Virus record (IMG/VR): IMGVR_UViG_3300028805_000056
Span: 84,552-148,551 of that record
DNA length: 64,000 nt
Source: a virus
Taxonomy: Duplodnaviria > Caudoviricetes
Strand: one strand, 5' to 3'
The translations under genes were made by a program, and so were the position numbers. Each line of letters begins with the position of its first letter. Within the stretch, counting starts at the first letter, position 1. Positions 6,074 to 22,813 of this stretch are shown here, in pieces. Below the pieces are notes generated by a model, which was not told where the DNA came from, ran no database searches, and worked only from the letters and a program-made list of their open reading frames with translations.

Positions 6074-9000
6074 ATGCCAAACGTTTTTATTAAAGTAGAC
6101 GGTGAATATACACAATCCGCCAATTTTTATAGAAAAATAAATGGAGAATGGTCGAGTATCACACAGGAAGAACTTATCTCTTATGTTGGTACAACAGTTT
6201 TCAATTATGGTGGAAATGTTAACAATACAAGGTTTGAAATTGCAGGACCAAGCAATGTTACGGCTGAAACCTGTTCCTGTGTTGCCATTCTTAATGGACA
6301 AACAGTCTCCAACGGCGTTTCATGGAGTATAACAAGTGGCGTACAATACGCAACAATTGATACCGGTGGTACTGTTACAATACTATCAACGGCAGATGAA
6401 TCAGAAATTGTGGTAACAGCCCAATATAACAGATATACTGCAAGCCTTACAATGAATATAACATTCCTGTCAGGCTCTACATCAGAAACAACAGTCGAAA
6501 CTGTAACTGACTCAAGTGGTAATACTACTACAACAACCACAACCACAACTGAAAACGAGGATGGCTCATCAACAGAAACCACCACAACAGTCATTACTGA
6601 TGAAAGCGGCAATACCATCGGAAGTACGGAAGTTAGTACTGAAACCAATGCTGATGGTTCTTACACTGGTACAACCACGAACTATGACTCTGAAGGTAAT
6701 GCAGTCGATGGTACTAATGTTGTCGGTGATTCAAGCGGTAACGTAAGTACACAAGATGTTGAATATGATGAAAGCGGTAATACTGTGGTAACATCATACA
6801 CAATTGATACAAGCGGTAATCCTAATGGTGAGAAAAACTTCAATGGTGACGGTATTAACACTGAGTACTATGCATTTGATATGACACACGGATTCGTTGT
6901 CGAACTTAACTTTACCATTGACTTTTCAAATCAACCGGCAGGACAGAATGAAAACCACCACCAGATACTTTCTGCAAAGAGAGCAACACCAACGCCTTGG
7001 TATGGTTTCCAAATAAGACAGTCAGGTACTAACAAGTACATACAACTCGGTACACAGTTTGCAACTGGTAGTAATACCAATACAACAATCAGTGCACAAA
7101 CAATTACGAACAATGTTGCTGAATACAATATTACTATAACATATAATCCAACAGCAAGTACAAATACATTTGTATGTTATGACAATATTAAAGACAGTGT
7201 TGTTTACAGAAGCAATAATGTCTTCCCTGACATCGATGACTTGAAATACCTTAAGGTGACTCTCGGTCATGGTATGGACGAAAATGGTGACCCATACAGA
7301 TATTCAAACATTGATGTTAAAAACTTTGTAATTAAAAGACTTAATAACGTGGCGGATCCTGCTATCACTTGCGATGGTATGGAAGTTACTATTACTTGTG
7401 CTACACAAGGTGCAGATATCTACTACAGATTAGGCAATGCGGGTCTGTATTCTACCTATACCGCTCCTATTTCGATAAGTGCGGATACTGTTGTATATTC
7501 ATATGCTGAATTAAACGGTGACAAGAGTAATACTATATCTCAACTCTGCGTATATGACAATGGTATTGAGAATCCCGTCATCACTTGCGATGGTATGGAA
7601 GTTACAATTACCTGTGTAACACAAGGCACAACTATATACTACAAAAGAGAACAAGAGGCTTCCTATTCTACATATAATGCACCATTTTCCATAAGTGCTG
7701 ATACAGTCGTCTATGCATATGCAGAATATAGCGGGCTTACAAGTAGCGTAGTGTCAGCAACTTGCGTTTATGACAACGGCATTGAAGCACCAGTTATATA
7801 CTGCGATGGAGAAAATGTTACCATTACTTGTAACACACCAAGTGTTGACCTTTATTATAAATTGAATCAGGAAACGGGATATACCGTATATGATGATGCA
7901 ATTACAATAAGCGCGGACACTGTTGTTTATGCATATGCTGAATTGAATGGTGCAACGAGTAATGTTGTATCAGCAACTTGTGTATACAGCCCAATAGTAT
8001 TGGTAAGTCCTGTTATTACTTGCGACGGTGAATTTGTAACAATCACTTGTGAAACACAAAATTCAACAATATTATATAAAATAGGACAGGAAGGTACATA
8101 TGCCGCATATACAGTTGCATTCCCAATAAGTGCGGATACTACAGTTTACGCATACTCACAGTACAATGGACAGACAAGTACCGTTGTTTCAGAGAATTGC
8201 ATATACAATCCTGTTCACGATTACAGTAAGGATTACCTCACATTCAGAATAACGAGTGGTGGCACTATCTGTTGGAAATCAGTCGGAAGCGGTTATGCTA
8301 AAACAATAGAATACAGTCTTAATGGCGGGGAATGGACATCTATAACCGCCGCATCCACACCACCATCAATTTCAGTGGCTGAAGGCGACGTTATAATGTT
8401 TAGAGGAACTAATCAAACATATGCAGGAAATAAATCAAATTATTCGTCATTCGGTCACGATACCAGTGGTAGCACAGACGTGGGTTCAACCGCACATTTC
8501 ACTATTGAAGGTAATATAATGAGTCTTATCTATGGTGATAACTTTAGTGGACATACAACATTCAATGGAGGAACATATAATTTATGTTCAATATTCAAAC
8601 GTACAAATGTAGAATCTGCTGAAAATCTTGTATTACCTGCAACTACATTAACAAATTACTGTTATCGTGCAATGTTCAGCTGGTGTACTTCATTAATGAC
8701 ACCACCACAATTACCTGCAACTACATTGGCTCAAGGCTGTTATTGGTATATGTTTGAGCAATGTCCGATGACTACGGCACCTGACCTTCTTGCTGAGACA
8801 TTGATACGAGAGTGCTACGGATATATGTTCACAGGTTGTGGAAACCTTAATTATATCAAATGTCTTGCAACAAATGTTGCATCCCCGCCAGCTTCAGCAT
8901 TAACGGGATGGGTTAGCAATGTGGCTGCTACAGGTACATTCGTAAAGGATACAGACACAACTTGGTCAACAGGTAACAACGGTATTCCAAACGGATGGAC

Positions 9001-11188
9001 AATATATGATAATACAGCAGTAGCCTCACCGGTAATAACATATGACGGATTTAATACTGTATCAATATCTTGTGCGACACAAGGTGCTGACATATATTAT
9101 AATGTGAATCATCTTAGAAGTTATACATTATATACCGCTCCGTTTACGATAAGCGATGATTCATATGTTGAAGCATATGCCATACTTGGCGGACAGAGTA
9201 GTAACACATTGACTCAGAACTGTGTTTATGTCAGTGATGTACCGGTAGAAGCATCGAACAGAGACATTAAATATTGGACAAATAACGGACAAACAATTAC
9301 AACGCCTTATTCAGTTAATGCAATTGACGGACACTCGTCAAGTTATTCAAGGGGTACATTTAACTTTGAATCGAGTTTTGCACTAAGACAAGCACAACCC
9401 GCATACTTATGGTTCCAACACGCAGACCAATCAGCATCTGTATATATAGACGATACATTGGTTGAGAAGCATTGGGGTGGCTATACCGCATTCTTTGTTG
9501 ATATATCCAATTATGTTCATAGCGGAACAAATAATGTAAAGGTGGCATTGAAGAACAACGAAGGTAATAACCTTGCACCGGCAGGTGGTGACTTTAACTT
9601 CAACGCAACACTCGGTAATGTGAAGTTACTGACAAGCCCGTGTTTACCCGCAATGAAATACGGCTATGACGGTTTCCACATCACATCTGATGTTGCCACT
9701 TCATCTGCAACAATATATGTGAGAACCACAGTTCCTACAGGTGCAACGTTAGTATGTACGATAAGCGGTACAAACTGTAATTACACTTCGACAAGTGCAA
9801 GTACGGGAGAAGAAATGACATTCAGCACAACTATTTCAAACCCCCATCTTTGGGGCGGTACAGCTGACCCATACCTGTATGATGTCAAACTCGAAATCTA
9901 CAACAACAATGTGCTATATCATTCATTTGAAAGACCTTATGGACTTAGGTTCTATGAATATGTCTTCAATGAAACGATTAACGGAAACCCATATACAGGC
10001 TTCCTGCTCAATGGTTCACCATATCTCTTGAGAGGTGTATGTATGCACGATGATATAGACGGTAAGGCCAATGCATTATCAGCAAGTGACTATGAACAGG
10101 AGTTCAACATTATACAGGAACTTGGTTGTAATTTCATCCGTCTTGCACACTATCCTCATCCAAAGGAAGTATATGACAATTGTGATAGGTTAGGTATTGT
10201 AGTACAGACGGAGGCTCCTTGTGTAAATAAACTCCAATCTACTATGCCATCCGATTACTATACACACCTTGAAGGACAATATACGGATATGGTAAATCAG
10301 CATTATAACCATCCTTGTATATTCTTTTGGGGTCTTAGTAACGAGACAACAACTGATGATAAGGACTTCGGTAAGACAAAGATAGAGGGATACACAACCC
10401 TTATCAGAAGTCTTGACTCAGAACGTATGATTGGTTATGTGATGTCACACAGTTGGGAAAACCCAAGTGCATATTATAACAATCCTGATGTTGACTGGTT
10501 CGGCTGTAATATCTACACAGGTTGGTATATTGATCAAAATTCAAATAACCCGTCAAATCGCCTTAACACACGTATAAACAATATCATAACCACCTTACAG
10601 AAGCCAATGGCATATTCTGAGTATGGTTGTGGTGGTACACAGCGATGTCACTCAGATAACTTTATGTCGACGACCACAAGGGGTAATAATGAGAGACACG
10701 ATATTGAATATCAAATGTGGCTGCATGAGGGTCATATTGCTACAATAAAGAATTATCCACAATTAATGTTTACCGCACAATGGCAGTTGTTTGACATTGC
10801 GGTTGCAAACAGAAACGAGGGTTATACGGTATGTCTTGACGGTGAGAATGCAACTACGGATGACAACCTCAGGAGATTGAACAACAAGGGTCTTGTTGAG
10901 AGAGACCACATCACGAAGAAGGATACGTTCTATCTCTATAAGGCATGGTGGAATCCGACACCATTCGTCCACATCTGCGGTAAGGATTATACAAAAACAA
11001 CAGACAGAGTGATCAAGTGTTATACGAATGATGGTGCTTCATTGTCAATGTATGTGAACAACACGTTTGTTGAAACGGTTAATGTAACTGACAACATTGC
11101 CACATTTACGGCAACGAACTTTAGTAATGGTGATGTTGTAAGGGTTGAGGGTACAAACACAAATGACACATTAACATTTGGTTCATAG
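6074..11188 (+). CDS. large multidomain protein: Ig-like + Thr-rich linker + chitobiase/FN3-like repeats + LRR-like repeats + C-terminal GH2 glycosidase
   Basis: GH2 motifs FLLNG.P..LRGV.MH, NFIRLAHYPH, CDRLGI, NHPCIFFWGLSNE, SEYG; P.ITCDG..VTITC.T repeats; LPATTL..CY..MF repeats; TATTTAT at 6038. Confidence 0.88.
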   Translation: MPNVFIKVDGEYTQSANFYRKINGEWSSITQEELISYVGTTVFNYGGNVNNTRFEIAGPSNVTAETCSCVAILNGQTVSNGVSWSITSGVQYATIDTGGTVTILSTADESEIVVTAQYNRYTASLTMNITFLSGSTSETTVETVTDSSGNTTTTTTTTTENEDGSSTETTTTVITDESGNTIGSTEVSTETNADGSYTGTTTNYDSEGNAVDGTNVVGDSSGNVSTQDVEYDESGNTVVTSYTIDTSGNPNGEKNFNGDGINTEYYAFDMTHGFVVELNFTIDFSNQPAGQNENHHQILSAKRATPTPWYGFQIRQSGTNKYIQLGTQFATGSNTNTTISAQTITNNVAEYNITITYNPTASTNTFVCYDNIKDSVVYRSNNVFPDIDDLKYLKVTLGHGMDENGDPYRYSNIDVKNFVIKRLNNVADPAITCDGMEVTITCATQGADIYYRLGNAGLYSTYTAPISISADTVVYSYAELNGDKSNTISQLCVYDNGIENPVITCDGMEVTITCVTQGTTIYYKREQEASYSTYNAPFSISADTVVYAYAEYSGLTSSVVSATCVYDNGIEAPVIYCDGENVTITCNTPSVDLYYKLNQETGYTVYDDAITISADTVVYAYAELNGATSNVVSATCVYSPIVLVSPVITCDGEFVTITCETQNSTILYKIGQEGTYAAYTVAFPISADTTVYAYSQYNGQTSTVVSENCIYNPVHDYSKDYLTFRITSGGTICWKSVGSGYAKTIEYSLNGGEWTSITAASTPPSISVAEGDVIMFRGTNQTYAGNKSNYSSFGHDTSGSTDVGSTAHFTIEGNIMSLIYGDNFSGHTTFNGGTYNLCSIFKRTNVESAENLVLPATTLTNYCYRAMFSWCTSLMTPPQLPATTLAQGCYWYMFEQCPMTTAPDLLAETLIRECYGYMFTGCGNLNYIKCLATNVASPPASALTGWVSNVAATGTFVKDTDTTWSTGNNGIPNGWTIYDNTAVASPVITYDGFNTVSISCATQGADIYYNVNHLRSYTLYTAPFTISDDSYVEAYAILGGQSSNTLTQNCVYVSDVPVEASNRDIKYWTNNGQTITTPYSVNAIDGHSSSYSRGTFNFESSFALRQAQPAYLWFQHADQSASVYIDDTLVEKHWGGYTAFFVDISNYVHSGTNNVKVALKNNEGNNLAPAGGDFNFNATLGNVKLLTSPCLPAMKYGYDGFHITSDVATSSATIYVRTTVPTGATLVCTISGTNCNYTSTSASTGEEMTFSTTISNPHLWGGTADPYLYDVKLEIYNNNVLYHSFERPYGLRFYEYVFNETINGNPYTGFLLNGSPYLLRGVCMHDDIDGKANALSASDYEQEFNIIQELGCNFIRLAHYPHPKEVYDNCDRLGIVVQTEAPCVNKLQSTMPSDYYTHLEGQYTDMVNQHYNHPCIFFWGLSNETTTDDKDFGKTKIEGYTTLIRSLDSERMIGYVMSHSWENPSAYYNNPDVDWFGCNIYTGWYIDQNSNNPSNRLNTRINNIITTLQKPMAYSEYGCGGTQRCHSDNFMSTTTRGNNERHDIEYQMWLHEGHIATIKNYPQLMFTAQWQLFDIAVANRNEGYTVCLDGENATTDDNLRRLNNKGLVERDHITKKDTFYLYKAWWNPTPFVHICGKDYTKTTDRVIKCYTNDGASLSMYVNNTFVETVNVTDNIATFTATNFSNGDVVRVEGTNTNDTLTFGS
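7357..8210 (+). repeat. four tandem ~72-aa coding repeats (fifth copy near 9026)
   Basis: P.ITCDG..VTITC.T....IYY....Y..P..ISADTVVYAY; ATCACTTGCGATGGTATGGAAGTTAC identical in copies 1 and 2. Confidence 0.85.
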
Positions 11189-11210
11189 GTATAATAAGAA
11201 TAAGAATTTG

Positions 11211-11253: not shown

Positions 11254-11272
11254 GAAAAAAGTTGGCAAAAAA

Positions 11273-11304: not shown

Positions 11305-11321
11305 CAGCAGAAAACAAAATA

Positions 11322-12237: not shown

Positions 12238-12666
12238 ATGGGATACGAGATTAATTCAACGTGGACGAGACTTCGTCAGAAAAGCATTGAGAAATTGAAC
12301 GAGATAATTGATGATGAGTATTGCAGGGAATTGGAAATCGGCAGAAAACTCAACATCATGGAAAAAATTACGGATGAGTTTGAAAAAGAAATAAATTCGC
12401 TCAATTGGGATAACATAACCAAATATATGAAAGAACATGATTGGACTTGGTATATGGGTGGAAATTTTGATAATTGTTACACCCCAACAAAGGAAGAAAT
12501 GATTGAAAGGCTTAGAAAAGATTTTCTTAAACATGGTCTTTATGAAATCATTGAACTTGGTAAGGACAGATTTTCGACATTTTCTGGTGGTTTTAACCTC
12601 GAAATTGGGTATAATGGAAATTCATATTGGGTTCATATCTGTTTTGATATTGCACATTTTGCTTGA
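12238..12666 (+). CDS. hypothetical protein
   Basis: 142-aa ORF after TATATTTG at 12200. Confidence 0.75.
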   Translation: MGYEINSTWTRLRQKSIEKLNEIIDDEYCRELEIGRKLNIMEKITDEFEKEINSLNWDNITKYMKEHDWTWYMGGNFDNCYTPTKEEMIERLRKDFLKHGLYEIIELGKDRFSTFSGGFNLEIGYNGNSYWVHICFDIAHFA

Positions 12667-12670
12667 AACA

Positions 12671-12985
12671 ATGAGTAGTATAGTTTGTAAATACAAGATA
12701 GTATATGATGGGGGTGATGGTTACACCCACGACAAATACATTTACTGCAAGTTTGAGAATGTTTGGGACGGTCAGTTATGGAGGAATGAGGACGGAACGC
12801 CTGTCGACTTCTTTTGTCTCTCGGATAGTCAGGCGCTTGTAACTGCACATTGTATCGCGAACATCCCAACTAATAATGAACATTACTATTGGAAAGAGAT
12901 AAAAGATTTTGAACTTCCGGATATTGTATGGGAGTCTTTTAAATCTTATAAAAGAAAAGAAGACAATGGAAATGAAAATACTTGA
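12671..12985 (+). CDS. hypothetical protein
   Basis: ATG 4 nt after upstream stop. Confidence 0.65.
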   Translation: MSSIVCKYKIVYDGGDGYTHDKYIYCKFENVWDGQLWRNEDGTPVDFFCLSDSQALVTAHCIANIPTNNEHYYWKEIKDFELPDIVWESFKSYKRKEDNGNENT

Positions 12986-13295
12986 TCTTCCTCTTAAGAA
13001 GGAATGGTATGAAATGATTGAGAGCGGGATTAAAGCCGAAGAATATAGGGAAATAAAGCCCTATTGGGTGAAAAGATTTCTTGGACTTGATCAACCGATA
13101 TTATTCTCAAAAAGATACGGGTATGAAACCTGTAATGTTAAGGGATATACCCACATCCGTTTTAGATACGGATATACAAAGAGGACCATGTTGTTCGAAT
13201 TGGATGACATAAGAATCGGACAAGGAAAAACCGAGTGGGGCGCACCGAAAGATCAAAAAGTGTTCATACTAAAGTTAGGAAATAGAAAAGAATAA
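12966..13295 (+). CDS. ASCH/PUA-like domain protein
   Basis: LDLPLKKEWYEMIESGIK.EEYREIKPYW (GxKxxExR) motif. Confidence 0.75.
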   Translation: MEMKILDLPLKKEWYEMIESGIKAEEYREIKPYWVKRFLGLDQPILFSKRYGYETCNVKGYTHIRFRYGYTKRTMLFELDDIRIGQGKTEWGAPKDQKVFILKLGNRKE

Positions 13296-13311
13296 AAAAA
13301 ACTTTGAAAAA

Positions 13312-13343
13312 TTTGGCCAATTCAAAAAAAAGCTGTACCTTTG
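13312..13343 (+). promoter_or_regulatory. class I sigma-A promoter
   Basis: TTTG-N20-TACCTTTG followed by CAGCAGAAAACAAAAA. Confidence 0.85.
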
Positions 13344-13403
13344 CAGCAGAAAACAAAAAGAAACAACAAAATTAATTAAATAACATTATTTAAATTTATT
13401 ATT

Positions 13404-14750
13404 ATGAGTACATCAGTTTTAAACGGAAAAATGAACATTGTCGAGAAGCACGTAACAATTAAGGAGTTCGTAGAGGGCTACCTCAACAATGAGAACGAAG
13501 AAGTCGGTGGCGTAACAACAATGAACGGAAATGTAATTATACGTCCCAAGTACCAACGTTCTTACATTCGTGCTAATGACACAAAGTGGAAGCGCAACCT
13601 CATCTTAAGTATCATCAATGGTTATCCTATCAGTCTTTTCTATTGGGGTGCTAACGAAGATGGTACGTTCGATATGATTGACGGGCAACAACGTAGTATC
13701 ACAATCTGTGATTTCATCAATGGTGGTTATTCTATCATTTATGACGAAAAAGAAAGATATTTCCACAATCTCCCACAAGAAGTGAAAGAGGATATACTTA
13801 ATTATAAATTGCGTGTGAATGTTTGTGTTGGTAGTCAGAGTAGCAAGTTGAAGTGGTTCGAAATCATCAATCAGCCTATCTCCGAACTGACAAAGCAAGA
13901 ACTCCGCAATGCGTCTTATAGTGGCGAATGGCTCGAAATGGTAAAGAAAATCTTTTCCGCCCCAAGCGCAGGTGCTCTCAAAGAAGTAACAGACAAAGAA
14001 AGCAAATATACCGCTCTCCGCTATACTGAAAAGCCAAAGATTGAACGCCAAGAAATTCTCGAAATGGTTTTGGATTGGGCATCTTATAATGAGTTTCCAA
14101 ACATCAAGACAAAGGACGAGCGCATCGAAAAGTATATGGCCGCTCATCAGCACGACACAGAAATGACCGAGTTGGATTTTTATCACAAGGTTATTGATTG
14201 GATTTGGGCAACGTTCCTTGACCTCGAAGAAAACATCCACGAATGTAGGGGTGTAAAGGGTACACCTCACTCTATGGTCGGTGCAGATTGGGGACGTTTG
14301 TACTATCAATTCCACAACAAAGAATTTGACACGAAGTACATTTCAAAACGTGTCATAGAACTTCTCAAAGATACCGACATCGTTAAATACAACGGAATTT
14401 ATGAGTATCTGCTTACTGGTGAGCAAGACCAAAAGTTACTGCAAATTCGCTCTTTCTCAAAGGACGACATCCGAAAGATGTATATCTACCAAGATGGTAT
14501 TGACCCCGTTAGTGGCGAAAAGCACCCAATCGAAGATTTTGAAGCACATCACATTGTGGCTTGGACTGATGGCGGCAAGACCGAAATCGGTAACCTCGTT
14601 CTTCTCACAAAGGAAAGTCACCACAAGTTCCACAATCAATATATTTCTCGTGATGAGATTGTTGCGAAACGTGATGAACTTTGGAAAGCAAACAACCCCA
14701 AAGATTTCCAAAAGTATTCAATGCTGAAAACCCTCAACGAAAGTTTCTAA
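13404..14750 (+). CDS. DUF262 (GmrSD-like) + HNH endonuclease
   Basis: RPKYQR, IDGQQR, FEIIN motifs; C-terminal EAHHIVAW..GGKT.IGNL..L...H. Confidence 0.85.
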   Translation: MSTSVLNGKMNIVEKHVTIKEFVEGYLNNENEEVGGVTTMNGNVIIRPKYQRSYIRANDTKWKRNLILSIINGYPISLFYWGANEDGTFDMIDGQQRSITICDFINGGYSIIYDEKERYFHNLPQEVKEDILNYKLRVNVCVGSQSSKLKWFEIINQPISELTKQELRNASYSGEWLEMVKKIFSAPSAGALKEVTDKESKYTALRYTEKPKIERQEILEMVLDWASYNEFPNIKTKDERIEKYMAAHQHDTEMTELDFYHKVIDWIWATFLDLEENIHECRGVKGTPHSMVGADWGRLYYQFHNKEFDTKYISKRVIELLKDTDIVKYNGIYEYLLTGEQDQKLLQIRSFSKDDIRKMYIYQDGIDPVSGEKHPIEDFEAHHIVAWTDGGKTEIGNLVLLTKESHHKFHNQYISRDEIVAKRDELWKANNPKDFQKYSMLKTLNESF

Positions 14751-14799
14751 AAAAGAGATAGTTAAAGGTATTTATTAATAGTTAAAAAGATAGAAAATT

Positions 14800-15762
14800 A
14801 TGGCTAAAACAAATAATACAAATCTGCATAGTGCAAAGAGAGAAAAGAACGATGAGTTTTACACACTTCTCGAAGATGTTGAGGATGAGTTGAAGTACTA
14901 CAAGGACTACTTTAAAGGCAAGGTAGTGTATTGTAACTGCGACAACGTGACAAAAGACCAACGCAGCAACTTCTTCAGGTACTTTGCTCTCAACTATGAG
15001 TTTCTCGGACTTAAAGGGCTTGTCTGCACAGCCTACAACCCAAACGGCAAGGGAAAGAAGTACGAATATTTTGGTGACCTCAATGGCAACAACTACCCCG
15101 ATGAGGAAGAAATCGAAACGACTGAAATGGACGGGGATGGTGACTTCCGTAGCCAAGAGTGTATCGAAATTCTCAAAAAGGCAGATGTTGTGGTAACAAA
15201 TCCCCCGTTCTCCCTTTTCCGTGAATATGTTGCACAATTAATGGAGCACGGCAAAAAATTCTTGATTGTCGGTGAACTGAACGTAGTTACCTACAAGGAA
15301 ATATTCCCTCTTATCAAGGAAAATAAAGTTTGGCTTGGCGTTAAAAACGTAAACACTGATATGGTGTTTAAAGTTCCATCTTATTACGAGGCAAAAACAA
15401 CTCGATATTGGCAAGATGAGAACGGACAAAAGTGGCGCAGTCTTGGAAATGCTTGTTGGCTCACCAATCTTGACCACAAGAAACGCCACGAAGAAATGAC
15501 ACTTTATAAAAAGTACAATGCGGAGAACTATCCGAAGTACGACAACTACGATGCAATCGAAGTGGGCAAGGTAACCGACATCCCTTGTGACTATGACGGA
15601 ATTATGGGTGTGCCTATCACATTTCTTGGCAAATACAATCCAAGTCAATTCGAAATAATTGGAATTGCAAATTCCGCTCGTTGGATAGGTGATTTCCCTT
15701 GTTATACAATTATAAATGGGAAGAAAATCTACAATCGCATATTAATCAAGCGAGTTTTCTAA
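14800..15762 (+). CDS. adenine-specific DNA methyltransferase, EcoRI family
   Basis: KNDEFYT, VYCNCD, GDGDFRS, VTNPPFSLFREY, YDNYDAI, MGVPITFL. Confidence 0.88.
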   Translation: MAKTNNTNLHSAKREKNDEFYTLLEDVEDELKYYKDYFKGKVVYCNCDNVTKDQRSNFFRYFALNYEFLGLKGLVCTAYNPNGKGKKYEYFGDLNGNNYPDEEEIETTEMDGDGDFRSQECIEILKKADVVVTNPPFSLFREYVAQLMEHGKKFLIVGELNVVTYKEIFPLIKENKVWLGVKNVNTDMVFKVPSYYEAKTTRYWQDENGQKWRSLGNACWLTNLDHKKRHEEMTLYKKYNAENYPKYDNYDAIEVGKVTDIPCDYDGIMGVPITFLGKYNPSQFEIIGIANSARWIGDFPCYTIINGKKIYNRILIKRVF

Positions 15763-15904
15763 TCAAAATTCTAAAATAAGGGCATTTGCCATTGACTGAT
15801 AAGTCTTTTTCATCATTGCCCTTTCTAAATTTGATTATTTCGAATTGACTAATAGATTAGACCAAAAAAATACAACAATAGTTTAAAACTATGTACTTAA
15901 TTTC

Positions 15905-15939
15905 AATGCACTTGCTCGTGAGAGTGGGTGCATTTTTTT
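15905..15939 (+). terminator. intrinsic terminator
   Basis: AATGCACTTGCTC/GAGTGGGTGCATT stem with G-U pairs plus T-run. Confidence 0.75.
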
Positions 15940-16007
15940 CCATTTTATTTGGTATATGGATTTTTTTGTATATTTGTTTTGTAAGTTTTTAATGTAATAT
16001 AAAATTT

Positions 16008-17114
16008 ATGGGAAAAATACAAGAAATTGGTTATAGTTTAAAGGACGTTAGTATCGTTCCATCCAAGATTACTTATATTGATCATCGTAGTGATGTTGAT
16101 CCGTTTATCCAAATATGCGGTAGAAAATCATATCCCATTTTTGTTGCACCAATGGGTGCTGTCACTGATGAAAACAACTATGAAACGTGGATTGAGAACA
16201 ATTTGACACCCGTAATTCCAAGAAGTGTCAGTACAAGACTGACATTTGAAGAACGACTTAAACTATCAGAAAAGACATTCGTCTCCTTTTCATTGAGCGA
16301 ATTTAGTGACTTTGTCGGAAGAACACCATATAACGAGAAAGACCCCGTCAGATACATATGTGTTGATTTGGCTAATGGGCATATGTTCAAATTGTTGAAA
16401 AAGTGTGAGATAGCAAAGTTGCGATATGGAAATAAAATAGTCCTTATGACGGGGAACATTGCAAACCCGAATACTTATGATGAATATTGTAGGGTTGGAA
16501 TTGATTATGTCCGTGTCGGTATCGGTGGAGGAAGCAGGTGCACAACCTCCGCAAATGGTGGGGTACACTATCCAATGGCCACTCTTCTTGACAAAATATG
16601 CAAAAAAAGGAACACTTATAAGGATTGGGAAAGATCCTATACCAAAATCGTCGCCGACGGTGGAATATATAATTTCGACGACATCAACAAGTGTCTTGCA
16701 ATCGGTGCAGATGCGGTTATGATAGGACGTGTGTTTGCCGAGTGTGAAGAGGCGTGTGGCGAAGTGTTATATGCAATGAACGAGAAGATGCTTAATGCGG
16801 GAATTGCCTATACTAAAGAAGATTACGATTGTCTCTGCGGACTTTTGAAGGATAACTTAAAGCCATATAGGGAATATTATGGAATGAGCACAAAACAGGC
16901 ACAGAAGGAAACCGGCGGAAAGGGCGACAAGACAGCAGAGGGCATTTCAAAACCGGTACTTGTAAAGTATCCTGTTGCTAAGTGGGTTGACAATATGCAG
17001 TCTTATCTTAGAAGCAGTATGGCATATTCGGATAGTAAGAACATAGAGGAGTTCAATGAAAATGCGGAGATAATCATTCTCGGAGGAAGCGGAGACTACA
17101 GCTATCGAAAATAA
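16008..17114 (+). CDS. IMP dehydrogenase / GMP reductase family protein (no CBS domain)
   Basis: APM, D.ANGH, GNIA, RVGIGGGSRCTT (catalytic Cys), IVADGGI, YYGMS, EG. Confidence 0.88.
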   Translation: MGKIQEIGYSLKDVSIVPSKITYIDHRSDVDPFIQICGRKSYPIFVAPMGAVTDENNYETWIENNLTPVIPRSVSTRLTFEERLKLSEKTFVSFSLSEFSDFVGRTPYNEKDPVRYICVDLANGHMFKLLKKCEIAKLRYGNKIVLMTGNIANPNTYDEYCRVGIDYVRVGIGGGSRCTTSANGGVHYPMATLLDKICKKRNTYKDWERSYTKIVADGGIYNFDDINKCLAIGADAVMIGRVFAECEEACGEVLYAMNEKMLNAGIAYTKEDYDCLCGLLKDNLKPYREYYGMSTKQAQKETGGKGDKTAEGISKPVLVKYPVAKWVDNMQSYLRSSMAYSDSKNIEEFNENAEIIILGGSGDYSYRK

Positions 17115-17140
17115 GAGAAAAAAAGCAATATTATGACTTA

Positions 17141-18169
17141 ATGGAATTAAACAGAATTTACAATTGTGATTGTGTAGACGGACTGAAAGAATTAGAGGAT
17201 AATTCAATTGACTTGGTTGTGACATCCCCACCATATGATGACCTTAGGACATATGGTCAGGACAAGTCAACGTGGAACTTTGAGACCTTTAAGAAGGTCG
17301 CCAATGAACTGTATCGTGTTATGAAACCGGGACGTGTTGTTGTGTGGGTTGTTGGTGATCAAGTTAAAAACGGAGGGGAAACCGGTACATCATTCAGGCA
17401 AGCCCTGTATTTTCAAGAGATTGGTTTCAAGATTCACGACACAATGATTTATGAGAAGAATTCATCATCATTTCCTGCAAGAAGAGATTCTAAAAGATAC
17501 ACACAGATTTTCGAATATATGTTTGTATTTGTGAAGGGAAAGATTCGTGATGACATAAAACTGATTGCGGACAAACGTAATAAGTGGTCAGGGTGGACGT
17601 CTTGGGGTAAACAGACACAATATAGTGACAAGGGTAAGATTGAGGTTGAGAAGACAATTATGCCCGTACCTGAGTTCAGTCTAAGGAACAATATATGGAA
17701 ATTCAGTGGGGCATTGAACGACAAGACAAAACACCCTGCGGTATTCCCTGAAAAACTTGCGGGAGACCACATCCTGTCTTGGACCGTTGAGGGTGATGTA
17801 GTGCTTGACCCATTCATGGGTAGTGGAACAAGTGCAAAAATGTCACTTCTTTACAATCGGCAATATATCGGTTTCGAACTAAATACCGAATATTATGAGG
17901 AATCGTTAAAGAGAGTTGAGAAGTATGTCGGAAAGGATTTGACTGGCGAGAATGAGACAATATCATTCAATGACGGTGACGATGACCTTATAGTAAGGAA
18001 AGAGGATGAAAAGGAACTGCAACAGAAGACAGAACTGTTCAACAAACTTGTTGAAGACCTCAACACATATTTTAATGAGCAATCACTAAGTATTCTGAAG
18101 ACATTAAAGTTGTCATTTGAGACAAAGACAAATAACAGACGAGTGGAAGAAAGATTGAAAAATAATTAA
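17141..18169 (+). CDS. beta-class amino DNA methyltransferase (m4C/m6A)
   Basis: VTSPPY precedes HPAVFP and VLDPFMGSGT. Confidence 0.9.
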   Translation: MELNRIYNCDCVDGLKELEDNSIDLVVTSPPYDDLRTYGQDKSTWNFETFKKVANELYRVMKPGRVVVWVVGDQVKNGGETGTSFRQALYFQEIGFKIHDTMIYEKNSSSFPARRDSKRYTQIFEYMFVFVKGKIRDDIKLIADKRNKWSGWTSWGKQTQYSDKGKIEVEKTIMPVPEFSLRNNIWKFSGALNDKTKHPAVFPEKLAGDHILSWTVEGDVVLDPFMGSGTSAKMSLLYNRQYIGFELNTEYYEESLKRVEKYVGKDLTGENETISFNDGDDDLIVRKEDEKELQQKTELFNKLVEDLNTYFNEQSLSILKTLKLSFETKTNNRRVEERLKNN

Positions 18170-18172
18170 AAA

Positions 18173-18640
18173 ATGGTACCATATTATATTATAATAGCAT
18201 TGGTAATCACATTGATTACCGTATTGAAGGAATTCATCATTGGGACGAGAATTTACGACTATGCAATAAATGCTGCGTTTATATTAGGTTGGATAGGCAC
18301 AATGTTCCCAACCAATATCTATTATACCATTTCATTGGCAATCGTCATTGTCTTGTTCATTTTGTCACATGTATTTTGGGGCAGGCCAACGGTGAATGGA
18401 GGGAATGAGGCATTTACATTTTCCGAAGCCAATGCGGATGAGAATGGTATTGTTCCGTTTATGCAAGGATATACAGGTAAGGTTGTTTCCGAAATGCAAG
18501 GCGGTTATCTTGGTACTACAATAAAAGACGGCTCACCTGTTGAAATTATCGTACATAGTGATGAGGAACTGCAACCGGGTGATGAATTTGAAATACTTGG
18601 TGCCTCAGGAACAAAAATAATTGCAAAAAAAACGAAATAA
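18173..18640 (+). CDS. membrane protein, NfeD-like
   Basis: Three N-terminal hydrophobic segments plus C-terminal OB-like GKVV...PGDEFEIL. Confidence 0.55.
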   Translation: MVPYYIIIALVITLITVLKEFIIGTRIYDYAINAAFILGWIGTMFPTNIYYTISLAIVIVLFILSHVFWGRPTVNGGNEAFTFSEANADENGIVPFMQGYTGKVVSEMQGGYLGTTIKDGSPVEIIVHSDEELQPGDEFEILGASGTKIIAKKTK

Positions 18641-18712
18641 TTAAAAAATTATTTGTATATTTGTGAAAATAAAAGGAAAAATAATGTTTTAAAACAAATT
18701 TTAATATAATCT

Positions 18713-20599
18713 ATGAGTAAAATTATTGGAATTGACCTTGGCACAACTAACAGTTGTGTGTCAGTTATGGAAGGAAACCAACCTACAGTAATCGTAAACA
18801 GCGAGGGTAAGAGAACTACACCGTCTGTTGTCGGTTTTGTCGAGGGTGGTGAAAGAAGAGTTGGTGACCCCGCAAAGCGTCAGGCCATTACTAATCCTAA
18901 TAATACCGTTTTCTCCATCAAGCGATTTATGGGAGAACGTTATGATGAGGTAAAGGACGAAATCAACCGTGTATCGTATAAGGTTGCTAAAGGTAAGAAC
19001 AACACTGCCCGTGTTGATATCAATGGCAAACTCTATACACCACAGGAAATTTCATCAATGATTCTTCAGAAGATGAAGGCAACGGCTGAAGACTATCTCG
19101 GTGAAGAGGTTAAGGAAGCGGTAATCACTGTTCCCGCTTATTTCTCCGACTCTCAGCGTCAAGCCACAAAGGAGGCAGGACAGATTGCAGGTCTTGAAGT
19201 CAAGAGAATCATCAACGAGCCTACAGCAGCAGCACTCGCATATGGTCTCGACAAGAAGGGTGGTAATGAGAAGATTGCAGTGTATGACTACGGTGGCGGT
19301 ACGTTCGATATCTCCATCCTTGAACTTGGCGGTGGCGTATTCGAGGTATTGAGCACTAATGGTAATACACATCTCGGCGGTGATGATTTTGATCAAGTAA
19401 TCATTGATTGGCTTGCTGAAGAGTTCCTTAAGGATGAGAATGTTGACCTCAGAAAGGACCCAATGGCACTGCAACGCCTTAAAGAGGCTGCTGAGAAGGC
19501 TAAGATTGAACTGTCATCCAACAGTACTGCGGAAATCAACCTTCCTTATATTACTGCGGTAGACAATGTTCCTAAGCATCTTGTCAAGACTCTTACGCGA
19601 GCGAACTTTGAGAAGATGACCGCAGAACTCGTCGAGAAGAGTATCGAACCTTGCCGTAAGGCTCTTGAGGATGCAAATCTTAAGCCAAGCGATATTGACG
19701 AGGTTATTCTTGTTGGCGGTTCAACACGTATCCCCGCTATTCAGGAGGCAGTAAAGAAGTTCTTCGGTAAGGAACCTAACAAGGGTGTTAATCCTGACGA
19801 GGTTGTTGCTATCGGCGCAGCAATTCAGGGCGGTGTTCTCGCGGGTGATGTAAAGGACGTGTTGCTTCTTGATGTGACACCACTTAATCTCGGTATTGAG
19901 ACGATGGGTGCGGTTATGACAACATTGATTGAGGCTAACACTACAATTCCTACGAAGAAGTCTCAAGTGTTCTCAACGGCAATGGATAATCAACCTGCGG
20001 TTTCCATCAATGTTCTTCAAGGTAATCGTCCTATGGCTTCACAGAACAAGCAAATCGGTATGTTCAACCTCGAAGGCATTGCTCCCGCACCAAGAGGTAT
20101 TCCTCAGATTGAGGTGACATTTGACATCGACGCCAACGGTATTCTCAATGTATCTGCTGTTGATAAGGCAACCGGTAAGGAGCAGAAGATTCGCATTGAA
20201 TCCAACTCAGGTCTCTCTGAAGATGAAATCAAGCGTATGCAGGAAGAGGCTAAGGCAAACGAGGAAGAGGACAAGAAGAAGAAGGAGGAAATTGACAAGA
20301 TTAATGAAGCCGATTCATTTGTCTACCACGTTGAGAAGACCCTTTCAGAGATGGAGTCCAAGTTTGAAGAAAACGAGAAGAAGGAGATTACTGATCTTAT
20401 CGAGAAACTCAAGAAAGCCGTTGAGGAACGGAACATTGAGGACATTGACAAGTACAACAGTGAACTTCAGGGAAAGTGGAATGCCTTTATTACGAAGGTT
20501 TATCAGGAAAACAACACTACGCCCAATATGGACGACATCATCAAGGATGCTGCAAAACCTAAGGATGACGAACCTGTGGAAGCGGAAACGGTTGAATAA
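18713..20599 (+). CDS. dnaK: molecular chaperone DnaK (Hsp70)
   Basis: [55 protein letters not shown]. Confidence 0.98.
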
Positions 20600-20621
20600 T
20601 TGTGGTTTTCTAGACAGTATT

Positions 20622-20649
20622 AAATGCGGGATCAACTCCCGCATTTTTT
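20622..20649 (+). terminator. intrinsic terminator
   Basis: AAATGCGGGA/TCCCGCATTT stem plus T-run. Confidence 0.8.
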
Positions 20650-20689
20650 GTTTTATAGATATTTATATGTATAATATAAATTATCCAAG

Positions 20690-22813
20690 ATGAGCGGTTT
20701 AAAGACAATTAAGGACTTTATAAAGGAGAACAAGGCACCGAGGGGCGCCAAATATATTGGTGTGTTTAAGGATGGTGAAAAAAACACACAGAAAAGGGTT
20801 GATATAAGATATACGAATCTTGTCAACAATGAAGAGGACATGCCACTTTTCCGTTTTGGAGTGTTATCTGATGTACACGTGAATGCTATGGCAAATTTAA
20901 GAAACGAAGACAGAGGGGAAAGAATGTGTGAATGTAAATATGATTTCTTGAATGCAATGAGGTATTTTCAAGAGAATGGTGCAAAATTCGTATGTATTTC
21001 AGGCGACCTTGTATTAAGTGGAGAGGAAAAAAATAAGAAAAATAATGGTATGCGGGACTGGGAACTTGTGAAGGACATAATGAATATGTACCAAATAAGT
21101 GGCAGTACAACATCTGAACCAATTCCCATATTCTCCTGTTTTGGAAACCATGATACATATGATGCTTTAGAAACCTTTGTCGGAAGTGATGGTAATTACA
21201 GACTATATCAGTCATTAGACGTAAATACTAATAAATACCCGAGAATTTTTGGCACTAATATTTATTACAGCGCCGGAACTTTCTATCGGCTTGATTCATC
21301 TAAGACAGAAAGTATTGAAGATTATATCACATGGGATGGTAATACGGCTGTGGTTGATGATTTCAAACGTGCTGATGACAAGATAATGAATTGGATAGAT
21401 AAGTGGAAGGACTATACGTTTGAAACTAATAATATGGATAAAGTCAGCGGAGTGACTAACGGTAAGGTTGTTTTCCAAATATTCGAAGGTCAGACGGTTG
21501 ATGAGTCCGAAAAGAGTCTTGAGGTTAAGTTCGGGGATGACGTAATCGGTATAAACACATTCGACGGTAGCGGAAATTTCAAGGACCTGAAAACCAAGAC
21601 CACAGGAAGTTTCTTTTTTGAATATAGTATAAATGGGGAAACATATGTCTTCATCTTTTTCAGTGTTTATAATGGCATTGACTTTGAAAGTTATAAGAAC
21701 GATTGTGATCGGGTATATCCAAACATCGAGTGGTTAAGAAAGGTGTTGGAACATTATAGAAACGAACACTGTTTTGTTTTCATTCACCCGCCATTTAGGA
21801 CCAAGTCCGGATTGTGGGGTGAAGATCTGAATGGAGAGGGACTATATTCTTATGTTTTGAAAGAAGAGGAGGCAGGTCCCGATAAATACTCACGTGGTCG
21901 ATATTCAACACAAAGAACAAGAGAATTTCTCCGTCTGAACGAATTGAATAATCACTACAAAAATTCAGTTTGGTTCTTTGGACACACTCACTTTAAGACC
22001 TTATATCAGAAATATTTCAAGAGAGCAAACATAACAACTGATGATCCTGTTAGTTCATACAACCAATCAGCATTAAACATACATGTTCCATCCTGTGCAT
22101 ATCCGAGATACGTAATTGGTGTCACCGAGACCTTTTCGGGTAATAGTATTTCAAATGACTTTGACGACTCGGAGGGCTTGATCATTGATGTGTTTACCGA
22201 TAGGATTGAGGTTAAAACCGTGTGGTTCAAGAAGGGTGTTGACTACGATGATGACGATAACATATACACAAGCGGTATAACCCTTGATGACACCGTTCCA
22301 TTGCCATATTCGGGACATGAGGAATATGGAAAGTATATGAATAAGATATCCCCGATGGCGTTCTATTCGTTAGACACTACGAAGGTTCAAATTGCCGCAG
22401 ATTCGGGGAACACACTGTTCGATACGGAAAATATAAGGAAGAAAATAGAGGAGAACTGCGGGAAACAGGTCGGTTTTGTCAAATGGGTAGGGAAAAATAG
22501 AGAAGACCTGGAAGTTTGCTATATCAGTGGGACAACCGGATATGAAGTAAAGAATAACATAGTGAACAAACTCGGTGAAGTAATGAGTACCGGCACCACC
22601 GGTATAACTGTAAGTGCTTTCTGTGACAACGATGAATATAATCTTGAAAACGTAGATACGGACCATTCGGGAGATATAAGGGACAATTCTGTATATTTGT
22701 TAGAGGGAAGTACCACCGGCAATACGGAAGTTCAAAAAATTGAGATTATAAAAAACAATTTGAGGAAGGTTCCGTTGAATATGATAAAATACATCACAAT
22801 AAAATACCAATAA
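20690..22813 (+). CDS. large metallophosphoesterase (putative late protein)
   Basis: SDVH, SGD, GNHD, FIH, GHTH motifs; TATTTAT at 20660. Confidence 0.82.
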   Translation: MSGLKTIKDFIKENKAPRGAKYIGVFKDGEKNTQKRVDIRYTNLVNNEEDMPLFRFGVLSDVHVNAMANLRNEDRGERMCECKYDFLNAMRYFQENGAKFVCISGDLVLSGEEKNKKNNGMRDWELVKDIMNMYQISGSTTSEPIPIFSCFGNHDTYDALETFVGSDGNYRLYQSLDVNTNKYPRIFGTNIYYSAGTFYRLDSSKTESIEDYITWDGNTAVVDDFKRADDKIMNWIDKWKDYTFETNNMDKVSGVTNGKVVFQIFEGQTVDESEKSLEVKFGDDVIGINTFDGSGNFKDLKTKTTGSFFFEYSINGETYVFIFFSVYNGIDFESYKNDCDRVYPNIEWLRKVLEHYRNEHCFVFIHPPFRTKSGLWGEDLNGEGLYSYVLKEEEAGPDKYSRGRYSTQRTREFLRLNELNNHYKNSVWFFGHTHFKTLYQKYFKRANITTDDPVSSYNQSALNIHVPSCAYPRYVIGVTETFSGNSISNDFDDSEGLIIDVFTDRIEVKTVWFKKGVDYDDDDNIYTSGITLDDTVPLPYSGHEEYGKYMNKISPMAFYSLDTTKVQIAADSGNTLFDTENIRKKIEENCGKQVGFVKWVGKNREDLEVCYISGTTGYEVKNNIVNKLGEVMSTGTTGITVSAFCDNDEYNLENVDTDHSGDIRDNSVYLLEGSTTGNTEVQKIEIIKNNLRKVPLNMIKYITIKYQ

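What the first reader, a model, noticed from the sequence alone, without database searches (positions are those of the whole stretch)
6074..22813. [S/T]-[G/A]-x-T motif enrichment in putative late proteins: candidate phage glycosylation sequon
Seen (hand count): the 707-aa phosphoesterase at 20690 has 9 matches (SGST, SAGT, SGVT, SGIT, SGNT, SGTT, TGTT, TGIT, TGNT) and the 1704-aa protein about 20 (SADT x4, SGNT x3, SGST x2, SAQT, SGLT, SGGT, SGHT and others), while the adjacent 628-aa DnaK has none. Both enriched genes follow TATTTAT. The window also encodes four glycosyltransferases, Glf and a GT-linked methyltransferase. Known: the host Bacteroidota O-glycosylation sequon is D-[S/T]-[AILVMT] and is periplasmic, so this motif differs. 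Inference: a phage-encoded cytoplasmic O-glycosylation system decorating virion proteins at its own sequon.
Basis: partly seen in the sequence, partly recalled or inferred. Interest (0 to 1): 0.75.

Follow-up and report, generated by a model that had tools for sequence, protein, structure and literature searches.

The report
Sequon-like Ser-Gly/Ala-x-Thr tag on phage fibres
A large gut or rumen phage writes the four-residue pattern Ser/Thr-Gly/Ala-x-Thr into its fibre-like and virion-associated proteins four to thirteen times more often than chance, while the same proteins in phages without sugar genes lack the excess, so it looks like a tag read by an enzyme, most plausibly a sugar-attachment site, though no chemistry has been shown.

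Summary
[ST][GA]xT occurs 9 times in the 707-aa phosphoesterase (0.7 expected), 21 times in the 1704-aa GH2 fibre (6.5 expected) and 0 times in DnaK. Across the whole 148.5-kb contig, all the excess sits in 8 large proteins poor in Lys and Glu (118 observed, 28.7 expected). The other 166 ORFs are at 18 observed, 18.0 expected. Reversed, permuted and Ser-ending versions of the motif are not enriched, and codons at the sites are mixed. An unbiased scan recovers S-G-x-T.

The motif is not a property of the folds. Orthologues of the virion phosphatase and LRR-giant pair in DAC16, crAss002, cr52_1 and Lak-A1 are at about 1x, a 149-member family sample falls from 3.1x to 1.3x with distance, and sites turn over and arise convergently.

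Three caveats apply. The 1621-aa LRR_5 protein's excess is largely family consensus (F-S-G-C-T-S-L). The link to glycosyltransferases is circumstantial: at least 9 GT-like genes, Glf, RmlA, RmlD, shared operons, and a GT cluster that stays next to the gene pair in relatives. A co-occurrence test limited to 10-kb flanks was not significant (p=0.38).

Verdict: this is a real, selected, lineage-specific tag, and O-glycosylation is the best but unproven reading. Other agents in this scan have reported the same motif in other jumbo phages.

The parts
6074..11188 (+). 1704-aa fibre-like protein. It has an S/T-rich N-terminal stalk, four to five Fn3_assoc/CHB_HEX_C-like repeats, an LRR-like module and a C-terminal GH2 glycosidase. 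It carries 21 [ST][GA]xT sites.
   Evidence: Pfam finds GH2 N, middle and C domains, Fn3_assoc and CHB_HEX_C_1. Counts are 21 against 6.5 expected. Nineteen sites lie in residues 1-985; the GH2 domain has 2 against 1.4 expected. There is no signal peptide.
6038..6044 (+). TATTTAT promoter-like motif 36 nt upstream of the 1704-aa gene, preceded by a hairpin and T-run.
   Evidence: The same motif sits about 30 nt upstream in 5 of 8 enriched genes (5 of 6 transcription units) against 15 of 166 other ORFs; Fisher p=5e-4.
20690..22813 (+). 707-aa calcineurin-like phosphoesterase with a C-terminal domain of unknown function. It carries 9 motif sites, 6 of them in residues 528-680.
   Evidence: Pfam Metallophos and phrog_1649. 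Counts are 9 against 0.70 expected. Homologues at 51% and 35% identity keep 7 against 0.74 and 5 against 0.50, mostly at other alignment columns. A low-confidence AF2 model places 8 of 9 sites in loops.
20660..20666 (+). TATTTAT promoter-like motif 30 nt upstream of the 707-aa gene, preceded by a hairpin and T-run.
22832..26591 (+). Tightly packed genes between the 707-aa gene and the GT genes: an AAA ATPase, a DNA-methylase-like gene and three genes of unknown function. Gaps are 0-51 nt, so this is probably one operon.
   Evidence: ORF coordinates; Pfam.
26588..27412 (+). Glycosyltransferase of type GT2_4/GT92-like, one of four paralogues on the contig.
   Evidence: Pfam PF13704 at 2.4e-13; four PF13704 copies on the contig.
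27405..28190 (+). DUF4422 GT-like protein, a probable partner of Glf.
   Evidence: Pfam PF14393 at 2.7e-36. A 52%-identical copy is present in relative G002.
28276..29397 (+). UDP-galactopyranose mutase (Glf).
   Evidence: Pfam GLF at 1.2e-75.
43566..44417 (-). Second GT2_4 glycosyltransferase in the window, downstream of a gene that has TATTTAT upstream.
55977..57562 (-). DXD glycosyltransferase (Gly_transf_sug) and the adjacent SAM methyltransferase.
   Evidence: Five viral loci with homologues of this GT show no motif excess in their flanks, so it is an unlikely reader of the motif.
18713..20599 (+). Phage DnaK, used as the negative control: 0 sites.
   Evidence: Pfam HSP70 at 1e-260; 0 observed against 0.63 expected.

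Best explanation
S-[G/A]-x-T (weaker with T at position 1; usually with a hydrophobic residue on each side) is a short recognition tag. This phage lineage has written it by point substitutions into loops and linkers of its fibre-like, host-interaction and virion-module proteins.

Proposed mechanism:
1. In late infection these proteins are made in the cytoplasm together with a large phage-encoded sugar toolkit. The toolkit comprises at least 9 GT-like genes, RmlA and a Metallophos-RmlD fusion (dTDP-rhamnose branch), Glf with DUF4422 (galactofuranose), and a methyltransferase.
2. A soluble initiating O-glycosyltransferase recognises the tag and puts the first sugar on Ser1 or Thr4. Candidates are the WcaA-like GT2 at contig 6215-7456 or one of the four GT92-like paralogues.
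3. The other GTs extend the glycan.
4. The result is a glycan coat on the outward-facing parts of the particle.

Shown here: the motif statistics, its specificity, its restriction to one protein class, its absence from orthologues in phages without GT genes, site turnover and convergent gains, the gene content, and the synteny.

For: 1. Enrichment. The 8 proteins hold 118 sites against 28.7 expected, while the other 166 ORFs hold 18 against 18.0. Without the LRR_5 protein the figure is 90 against 22.7.

2. Specificity. S-G-x-T is 7.2x and S-A-x-T 4.5x. At position 4, Thr is 6.1x and every other residue is at most 1.9x (Ser 1.25x). Reversed and permuted motifs are 0.9-1.3x. An unbiased 3-position scan ranks S-G-x-T (58 against 8.05) as the top motif without cysteine.

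3. Protein level. Ser is encoded by both AGY and TCN codons at the sites.

4. Not intrinsic to the fold. The orthologous phosphatase and LRR-giant pair gives 2/1.6 and 5/5.0 in DAC16, 0/1.5 and 4/4.0 in crAss002, 4/1.9 and 6/4.8 in cr52_1, and 4/3.0 and 3/3.5 in Lak-A1, against 23/3.6 and 10/4.5 here. In 149 family representatives, ranks 1-20 are at 3.06x, ranks 21-60 at 1.35x and the rest at 1.27x.

5. Turnover and convergence. In the 707-aa family there are 11 sites in non-homologous columns against about 1.7 expected. SGAT and SAIT arise independently at the same columns in separate lineages, and a variable linker has become four tandem copies of the motif.

6. Sugar genes.
- The 707-aa gene shares a tight operon with GT2_4, DUF4422 and Glf.
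- A collagen-like fibre gene is followed by a 5-gene GT cluster.
- RmlA and RmlD abut the LRR_5 gene.
- The GT cluster stays beside the gene pair in relatives G002, L070 and L082/83, which also carry the excess.
- The complete genomes of DAC16 and crAss002 have no PF00535, PF13704, PF00534 or PF00483 hits and no excess.

7. Precedents. SgtA, a WcaA-like GT-A enzyme, O-glycosylates Thr in Gly-Pro-Thr repeats (PMC7157674). Phage-encoded virion glycosylation is known in mycobacteriophages (Freeman 2023, as cited in PMC12619734).
Against: - No glycan has been detected and no reader enzyme identified.
- The dereplicated test of co-occurrence between motif excess and GT or sugar genes within 10 kb was not significant (18 lineages, Mann-Whitney p=0.38). 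Lineage L056 has the GT cluster but no clear excess. L033, L035 and L060 have the excess but no recognised GT in their short flanks, apart from one weak GT2-like hit in L035.
- The LRR_5 protein's excess is largely family consensus: 116 diverse LRR_5 homologues have a median of 1.85x, ranging up to 7x.
- Four of the 21 sites in the 1704-aa protein are one SADT inherited by repeated domains.
- The structure model is poor (pLDDT 58.6), so surface exposure is not established.
- The rest of the proteome shows no avoidance of the motif.
- Phage GTs can instead serve DNA hypermodification or modification of host surface glycans (PMC12619734).
Confidence: 0.5

Rival explanations
1. The tag is read by something other than a glycosyltransferase. 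Possibilities are another modification (phosphorylation, acylation or similar on Ser or Thr), an assembly or chaperone factor (the phage encodes DnaK and an AAA ATPase next to the 707-aa gene), or direct contact between the motif and a host surface ligand. On this reading the GT genes serve DNA or host-glycan modification.
For: All the statistical evidence (specificity, lineage restriction, turnover) requires a reader or a selective agent, but not a GT. The flank-limited test of association with GT genes was null. DnaK and the AAA ATPase flank the 707-aa gene. DNA glycosylation and serotype conversion are the documented roles of phage GTs (PMC12619734).
Against: No kinase or other protein-modifying enzyme was found among the genes annotated, though many ORFs remain unannotated. 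Known Hsp70 binding motifs are hydrophobic and basic, not S-G-x-T (background knowledge). The phage also encodes a GmrSD-like nuclease, a family that targets glycosylated DNA, which fits poorly with glycosylating its own DNA (inference).
Confidence: 0.27
2. The motif is purely structural, a favoured turn-plus-strand-start element, as in the BspA LRR consensus F-S-G-C-T-S-L. This lineage happens to use it often, and nothing reads it.
For: LRR_5 proteins in general carry it: median 1.85x, with SGxT at 1029 observed against 270.6 expected. Sites have hydrophobic residues at positions -1 and +5. Sites lie at the ends of secondary-structure elements in the model. SADT is part of a repeated-domain consensus.
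Against: Orthologues with the same folds and the same composition have about 1x. Sites are gained and lost at non-homologous positions while their density is kept. Thr at position 4 cannot be replaced by Ser, and Ser at position 1 is preferred threefold over Thr, Asp and Asn. The excess appears in unrelated folds (Metallophos, linkers, Fn3-like domains, and the 444-aa protein of unknown fold) with little paralogy between them.
Confidence: 0.18
3. The enrichment is an artefact of chance, post-hoc motif choice, or S/T/G-rich composition.
For: The motif was defined after looking at two proteins. The enriched proteins are rich in Ser and Thr.
Against: Proteins outside the window give 60 against 15.5, p=7.5e-18. 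Local-window shuffles keep the excess. Control motifs with the same composition are at about 1x.
Confidence: 0.01

Closest known systems
Virion O-glycosylation of mycobacteriophages by phage-encoded glycosyltransferases (Freeman et al. 2023, Cell Host Microbe). The paper is not held in the library and is known here only through PMC12619734.
   Same: Phage-encoded GTs modify the phage's own particle proteins in the host cytoplasm, and the glycans shield the virion.
   Different: In mycobacteriophages the glycans sit at the C-termini of capsid and tail-tube subunits. Here the candidate sites are a dispersed four-residue motif in fibre-like and enzyme-bearing proteins of a Bacteroidota-type jumbo phage. 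No glycan has been shown here.
SgtA with BclA3 of Clostridioides difficile, where O-GlcNAc is placed on Thr in Gly-Pro-Thr collagen-like repeats (PMC7157674)
   Same: A soluble WcaA-like GT-A enzyme, encoded next to its substrate gene, glycosylates Thr in a Gly-x-Thr context. This phage has a WcaA-like GT2 in a cluster directly after a collagen-like fibre gene, and Thr is strictly required at the last motif position.
   Different: The motif here needs Ser or Thr before the Gly or Ala and lies mostly outside collagen repeats. No TPR domain was detected in the phage GT. Homology to SgtA itself was not tested because no SgtA sequence was available from a tool.
General O-glycosylation of Bacteroidota at D-[ST]-[AILVMT] (PMC8550257, PMC10897501)
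   Same: A short O-glycosylation sequon in the presumed host phylum.
   Different: The host system acts outside the cytoplasm. The phage proteins have no signal peptides, and D-[ST]-[AILVMT] is not enriched in them (35 against 40.5).
BspA-type leucine-rich repeat (Pfam LRR_5) consensus F-S-G-C-T-S-L
   Same: It contains S-G-x-T as a structural element, and it explains much of the count in the 1621-aa protein.
   Different: It cannot explain the Metallophos proteins, the linkers, the 444-aa protein or the N-terminal modules. Only 13 of 118 sites have Phe at position -1.

Membership tests
Sequon-directed protein glycosylation system | The acceptor motif is over-represented in the substrate class beyond what composition predicts, with sequence specificity. 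| tested here: met
   118 observed against 28.7 expected; control motifs are at about 1x; Thr is strictly required at position 4.
Sequon-directed protein glycosylation system | Site density is conserved while site positions turn over among homologues. | tested here: met
   and the family gradient.
Sequon-directed protein glycosylation system | The sites are solvent-exposed. | tested here: inconclusive
   Eight of 9 sites lie in loops of an AF2 model, but its mean pLDDT is 58.6.
Sequon-directed protein glycosylation system | The motif co-occurs with a specific glycosyltransferase across genomes. | tested here: inconclusive
   The complete genomes without GT genes (DAC16, crAss002) have no excess, and the GT-rich contigs G000, G002, L070 and L082 have it. 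The test limited to 10-kb flanks gave p=0.38, with exceptions L056, L033 and L035.
Sequon-directed protein glycosylation system | A glycan is covalently attached at the motif. | not testable with these tools
   This needs mass spectrometry of virions or of co-expressed proteins.
Mycobacteriophage-type virion glycosylation | Phage-encoded GTs are expressed together with the structural genes. | tested here: met
   At least 9 GT-like genes are present. The GT clusters share operons or promoter class with the enriched genes.
Mycobacteriophage-type virion glycosylation | The targets are the C-termini of the capsid and tail-tube subunits. | not tested
   The capsid and tail-tube genes were not identified on this 41%-complete contig.
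Bacteroidota general O-glycosylation | The D-[ST]-[AILVMT] motif occurs on exported proteins. | tested here: not met
   The motif gives 35 against 40.5 in the enriched proteins, and they have no signal peptides.
BspA LRR_5 structural consensus as the source of the motif | The protein is an LRR_5 member and its sites lie in the F-x-G-C-T-x-L register. | tested here: met
   This holds for the 1621-aa protein only. Pfam LRR_5 scores 1.6e-146, about half of its 28 sites are in register, and the family baseline is a median of 1.85x. It does not hold for the other seven proteins.

The most novel reading that the evidence does not exclude
S-[G/A]-x-T is a genuine O-glycosylation sequon. It is read in the bacterial cytoplasm by a soluble phage glycosyltransferase and used by this and other jumbo-phage lineages to coat fibres and outer virion proteins with a phage-made glycan containing rhamnose and galactofuranose. 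This would be the first defined acceptor motif for virion glycosylation in tailed phages.
Probability: 0.45. Interest if true: 0.85.

Novelty: new variant of a known kind. Interest (0 to 1): 0.68.

Why it matters
If the tag is a sugar-attachment site, three things follow.
- Gut and rumen phages would be controlling their own surface chemistry with a simple, portable four-residue code. That bears on phage stability, host recognition, adherence to mucus and immune visibility.
- The code could be read directly from metagenomic sequence to predict which proteins face outwards.
- A soluble enzyme with a defined short sequon would be a useful tool for glycoengineering.

The claim is directly testable with one co-expression experiment and mass spectrometry.

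Tried and rejected
Searches that found nothing or could not run:
- Searching the phage collection with the DNA of window 6074-22813 and with the 707-aa protein found nothing.
- The search for related loci with the 707-aa protein or its alignment found nothing in viral or metagenome contigs. The LRR_5 protein and the GT92-like GT also gave no loci.
- The genome search cannot draw relatives for a virus record and cannot search metagenome records.
- The Freeman 2023 paper is not held in the library.
- Two literature searches for a described phage sequon found nothing relevant.

Explanations rejected:
- A DNA-level cause, because codons at the sites are mixed.
- Composition or low complexity.
- Paralogy inflating the counts. 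Only two pairs of the enriched proteins share any homology.
- The host D-[ST]-[AILVMT] system.
- The Gly_transf_sug GT as reader is unlikely, because loci with its homologues show no excess.

Inconclusive results:
- The AF2 model of the 707-aa protein was too poor to prove surface exposure.
- The flank-limited GT co-occurrence test.
Full report
**Setting.** The window is bases 84552-148551 of a 148,551-bp IMG/VR virus contig that CheckV estimates to be 41% complete. It is therefore a fragment of a jumbo phage. Its closest annotated relatives, for one conserved virion gene pair, are Bacteroides phages (DAC and SJC types, crAss-like) and the Prevotella Lak phages.

**Checking the observation.** The 707-aa phosphoesterase has 9 [ST][GA]xT sites, the 1704-aa protein has 21, and DnaK has 0. 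Expectations from each protein's own composition are 0.70, 6.5 and 0.63. No whole-protein shuffle and no local shuffle within 20-, 40- or 100-aa windows reached the observed numbers. TATTTAT lies 36 and 30 nt upstream of the two start codons, each after a hairpin and T-run. The four GT genes, Glf and the methyltransferase are present as stated.

**Whole contig.** I laid out the contig and called 174 non-overlapping ORFs. The motif total is 136 against 46.7 expected. All of the excess lies in eight large proteins that are rich in Ser and Thr and poor in Lys and Glu; the remaining 166 ORFs give 18 against 18.0. The eight proteins are:

| Protein | Location | Character | Observed / expected |
|---|---|---|---|
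| 1344 aa | contig 12478-16512 | Metallophos plus LTD domains | 23 / 3.6 |
| 2676 aa | contig 16521-24551 | LRR giant | 10 / 4.5 |
| 713 aa | contig 38355-40496(-) | Metallophos, paralogue of the 707-aa protein | 10 / 2.2 |
| 444 aa | contig 40503-41837(-) | unknown fold | 8 / 2.5 |
| 598 aa | contig 65870-67666 | shares a module with the 1704-aa protein | 9 / 2.7 |
| 1621 aa | contig 76590-81455(-) | LRR_5 | 28 / 6.0 |
| 1704 aa | window 6074-11188 | GH2 fibre | 21 / 6.5 |
| 707 aa | window 20690-22813 | Metallophos | 9 / 0.7 |

There is little paralogy among the eight. Only the 598/1704 pair and the 707/713 pair share segments.

**Specificity.**
- Motifs with the same composition are flat. 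The reversed motif T-x-[GA]-[ST] is 0.94x, [ST]-x-[GA]-T is 1.26x, [GA]-[ST]-x-T is 1.15x, and [ST]-[GA]-x-S is 0.83x.
- Position scans show Ser at 7.2x at position 1, with Thr, Asp, Asn and Glu at about 2.3x. At position 2, Gly is 7.2x and Ala 4.5x. At position 4, Thr is 6.1x and every other residue is at most 1.9x.
- An unbiased scan of all three-position patterns ranks S-G-x-T (58 against 8.05) third overall. It is first among patterns without cysteine. The other top patterns are the LRR consensus F-x-G-C, G-C-x-x-L and so on.
- Ser at the sites is encoded by both AGY and TCN codon families, so the signal is at the protein level.
- The flanking positions favour Ile or Phe before the motif and Val or Ile after it.

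**What is ordinary.**
- The 1621-aa protein is a BspA-type LRR_5 protein (E=1.6e-146), and the family consensus F-S-G-C-T-S-L contains the motif.
- In 116 diverse LRR_5 homologues the motif has a median of 1.85x and reaches 7x. I therefore discount this protein. About half of its 28 sites are in LRR register.
- Four of the 21 sites in the 1704-aa protein are one SADT repeated in four Fn3_assoc/CHB_HEX_C-like domains.
- Without the LRR_5 protein, the remaining seven proteins still hold 90 sites against 22.7 expected.

**The excess is not intrinsic to the folds.** The 1344-aa and 2676-aa genes form a conserved pair that lies in the structural block of crAss-like phages. In crAss002 they are gp19 'phosphatase' and gp20, downstream of the portal and major capsid genes. 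Here they follow the head maturation protease gene.

Orthologues elsewhere sit at chance:

| Phage or contig | Phosphatase | LRR giant |
|---|---|---|
| This phage | 23/3.6 | 10/4.5 |
| DAC16 | 2/1.6 | 5/5.0 |
| crAss002 | 0/1.5 | 4/4.0 |
| cr52_1 (read with TAG=Q) | 4/1.9 | 6/4.8 |
| Lak-A1 (read with TAG=Q) | 4/3.0 | 3/3.5 |
| IMG/VR contig behind L010 | 4/2.5 | 7/4.9 |

In 149 representatives of the phosphatase family, the 20 nearest clusters average 3.06x (107 against 35.0), ranks 21-60 average 1.35x, and the rest average 1.27x. The reversed motif stays near 1.0x beyond the nearest 20 clusters (1.6x within them). The excess therefore belongs to one clade and peaks in this phage.

**Turnover.**
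- In the 707-aa family, five homologues at 80-89% identity each keep 7-9 sites but at partly different columns. One loop reads STGTTGIT, SSSADTGII or SGYTGII in different members.
- The 51%-identical homologue has 7 sites, of which 3 are shared. The 35%-identical one has 5, of which none are shared.
- Sites in non-homologous columns in the three distant members number 11 against about 1.7 expected. By my arithmetic this gives a Poisson p of about 2e-6.
- In the 1344-aa family, sites are created next to a pre-existing Thr. For example, SAFT here aligns with KVYT, KAYT and EAYT elsewhere.
- SGAT and SAIT arise at the same columns in separate lineages.
- A variable linker has become four tandem copies of the motif in this phage.
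- In relatives the gene is split, and the N-terminal module of about 400-480 aa carries the strongest excess: 9/0.75 in L082, 9/0.92 in L083, 5/0.36 in L033 and 11/1.19 in L060.

**Where the sites sit.**
- Catalytic cores are spared. The GH2 domain has 2 against 1.4 expected, and the Metallophos core has few sites.
- Sites concentrate in N-terminal modules, linkers and accessory domains.
- The AF2 model of the 707-aa protein is poor (mean pLDDT 58.6). It places 8 of 9 sites in loops at the ends of secondary-structure elements. This is weak support for exposure.
- None of the eight proteins has a signal peptide. The host motif D-[ST]-[AILVMT] (PMC8550257) is not enriched.

**Sugar machinery.** The contig carries the following:
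- Four GT2_4/GT92-like genes (contig 1499, 25440(-), 111139 and 128117(-)).
- A WcaA-like GT2 (contig 6215).
- A 647-aa GT that resembles WsaF/RgpF rhamnosyltransferases plus GT4 (Atlas score 0.94, a lead only; weak PF00534 match).
- A GT6-like gene of 265 aa.
- DUF4422.
- A DXD GT (Gly_transf_sug).
- Glf, RmlA, a Metallophos-RmlD fusion and a methyltransferase.

Three gene arrangements link them to the enriched genes:
- The 707-aa gene heads a tight operon that ends in GT2_4, DUF4422 and Glf.
- A collagen-like tail fibre gene at the start of the contig is followed by a five-gene GT cluster.
- RmlA and RmlD abut the LRR_5 gene.

TATTTAT precedes 5 of 8 enriched genes against 15 of 166 others (Fisher p=5e-4). 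It also precedes the gene upstream of one GT2_4 gene.

In relative G002 (138.7 kb), homologues of the GT cluster lie directly beside the orthologous pair, which shows a moderate excess of 12/4.8 and 6/1.2. The same arrangement is seen in L070, L082 and L083. The complete genomes of DAC16 and crAss002 have no hits to PF00535, PF13704, PF00534 or PF00483 and no excess.

**Test of the link.** I fetched 80 metagenome loci holding orthologues, each with 10-kb flanks. I dereplicated them to 18 lineages and compared motif excess with the presence of homologues of this phage's sugar genes in the flanks. The result is not significant (Mann-Whitney p=0.38).
- The three large groups without visible GT genes are flat: crAss002-like (n=35), DAC-like (n=14) and TAG-recoded crAss-like (n=9).
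- L056 has the cluster but no clear excess.
- L033, L035 and L060 have the excess but no recognised GT in the short flanks. The only exception is one weak GT2-like hit in L035.

The association therefore remains suggestive only.

**Reading.**
- The statistics call for a selective agent that recognises S-[GA]-x-T in exposed parts of a particular class of phage proteins.
- A phage-encoded O-glycosyltransferase is the most economical candidate, given the sugar gene content and the operon structure.
- The SgtA-BclA3 precedent also fits: there a WcaA-like GT-A enzyme glycosylates Thr in Gly-x-Thr (PMC7157674).
- Virion glycosylation in mycobacteriophages is a further precedent (Freeman 2023, via PMC12619734).
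- I put this reading at about 0.5, another reader or modification at about 0.27, and a purely structural habit at about 0.18. Chance is excluded.
- Whether the 707-aa protein is in the virion is unknown.

**Earlier notes of this scan.** Other agents have reported the same [ST]-[GA]-x-T excess in tail proteins of several other jumbo phages. I used these notes as leads only. One of them supplied the SgtA paper, which I read myself. My LRR_5 result shows that at least one bacterial fold carries the motif on its own, and this should temper blanket statements in those notes.

Noticed in passing
window 18713-20599 and 22832-23950: The phage encodes a full-length DnaK/Hsp70 (Pfam E=1e-260) and an AAA ATPase on either side of the 707-aa gene. 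A chaperone pair next to a heavily tagged protein may be relevant to assembly.
   Followed up: no
window 13404-18169: A GmrSD_N (DUF262) plus HNH nuclease gene sits beside an EcoRI-type adenine methylase, an IMPDH/GMP-reductase-like gene and an N6/N4 DNA methylase. A phage-borne nuclease of a family known to target modified DNA is unusual.
   Followed up: no
L008:13434-16553 (contig 73433-76552, outside the window): A single 610-aa gene fuses a calcineurin-like phosphoesterase domain to RmlD (dTDP-4-dehydrorhamnose reductase), and RmlA follows it. The fusion is conserved in G002 and in several metagenome relatives.
   Followed up: partly
L004:1-7456 (contig start, outside the window): A collagen-like tail fibre, with a recurring G-T-A-S-T-L-T-G interruption and a chaperone-like C-terminus, is followed without a gap by a cluster of GT92-like, unknown, GT6-like, 647-aa GT and WcaA-like GT2 genes. 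The 272-aa unknown protein is a paralogue of residues 382-584 of the 647-aa GT.
   Followed up: partly
L005:79-4113, residues 358-373: A linker that is variable in homologues consists here of four tandem copies of the motif. A shorter double copy occurs in the LRR_5 protein at residues 871-878.
   Followed up: partly
L033, L056, L070, L072, L082, L083 and G002: In relatives the 1344-aa gene is split into an N-terminal gene of about 400-680 aa and a phosphatase gene of about 920-960 aa. The N-terminal gene carries the strongest motif excess.
   Followed up: partly
L040, L041, L042 and L066: In this lineage the phosphatase ORF is open only when TAG is read as a residue, while the neighbouring giant ORF is open under the standard code.
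   Followed up: no
window 5975-6044 and 20625-20666, and contig 12400, 41900 and 81500: A recurring arrangement of a GC-rich hairpin with a T-run, then (A/T)TATTTAT(A/T)A about 30 nt before the start codon. It looks like a terminator followed by a late-promoter cassette and recalls the T4 late promoter TATAAATA.
   Followed up: partly
window 30595-31965 and 35004-35306: A DUF2828/DUF7788 protein and a short fragment with weak similarity to a PARP catalytic domain (E=0.006).
   Followed up: no
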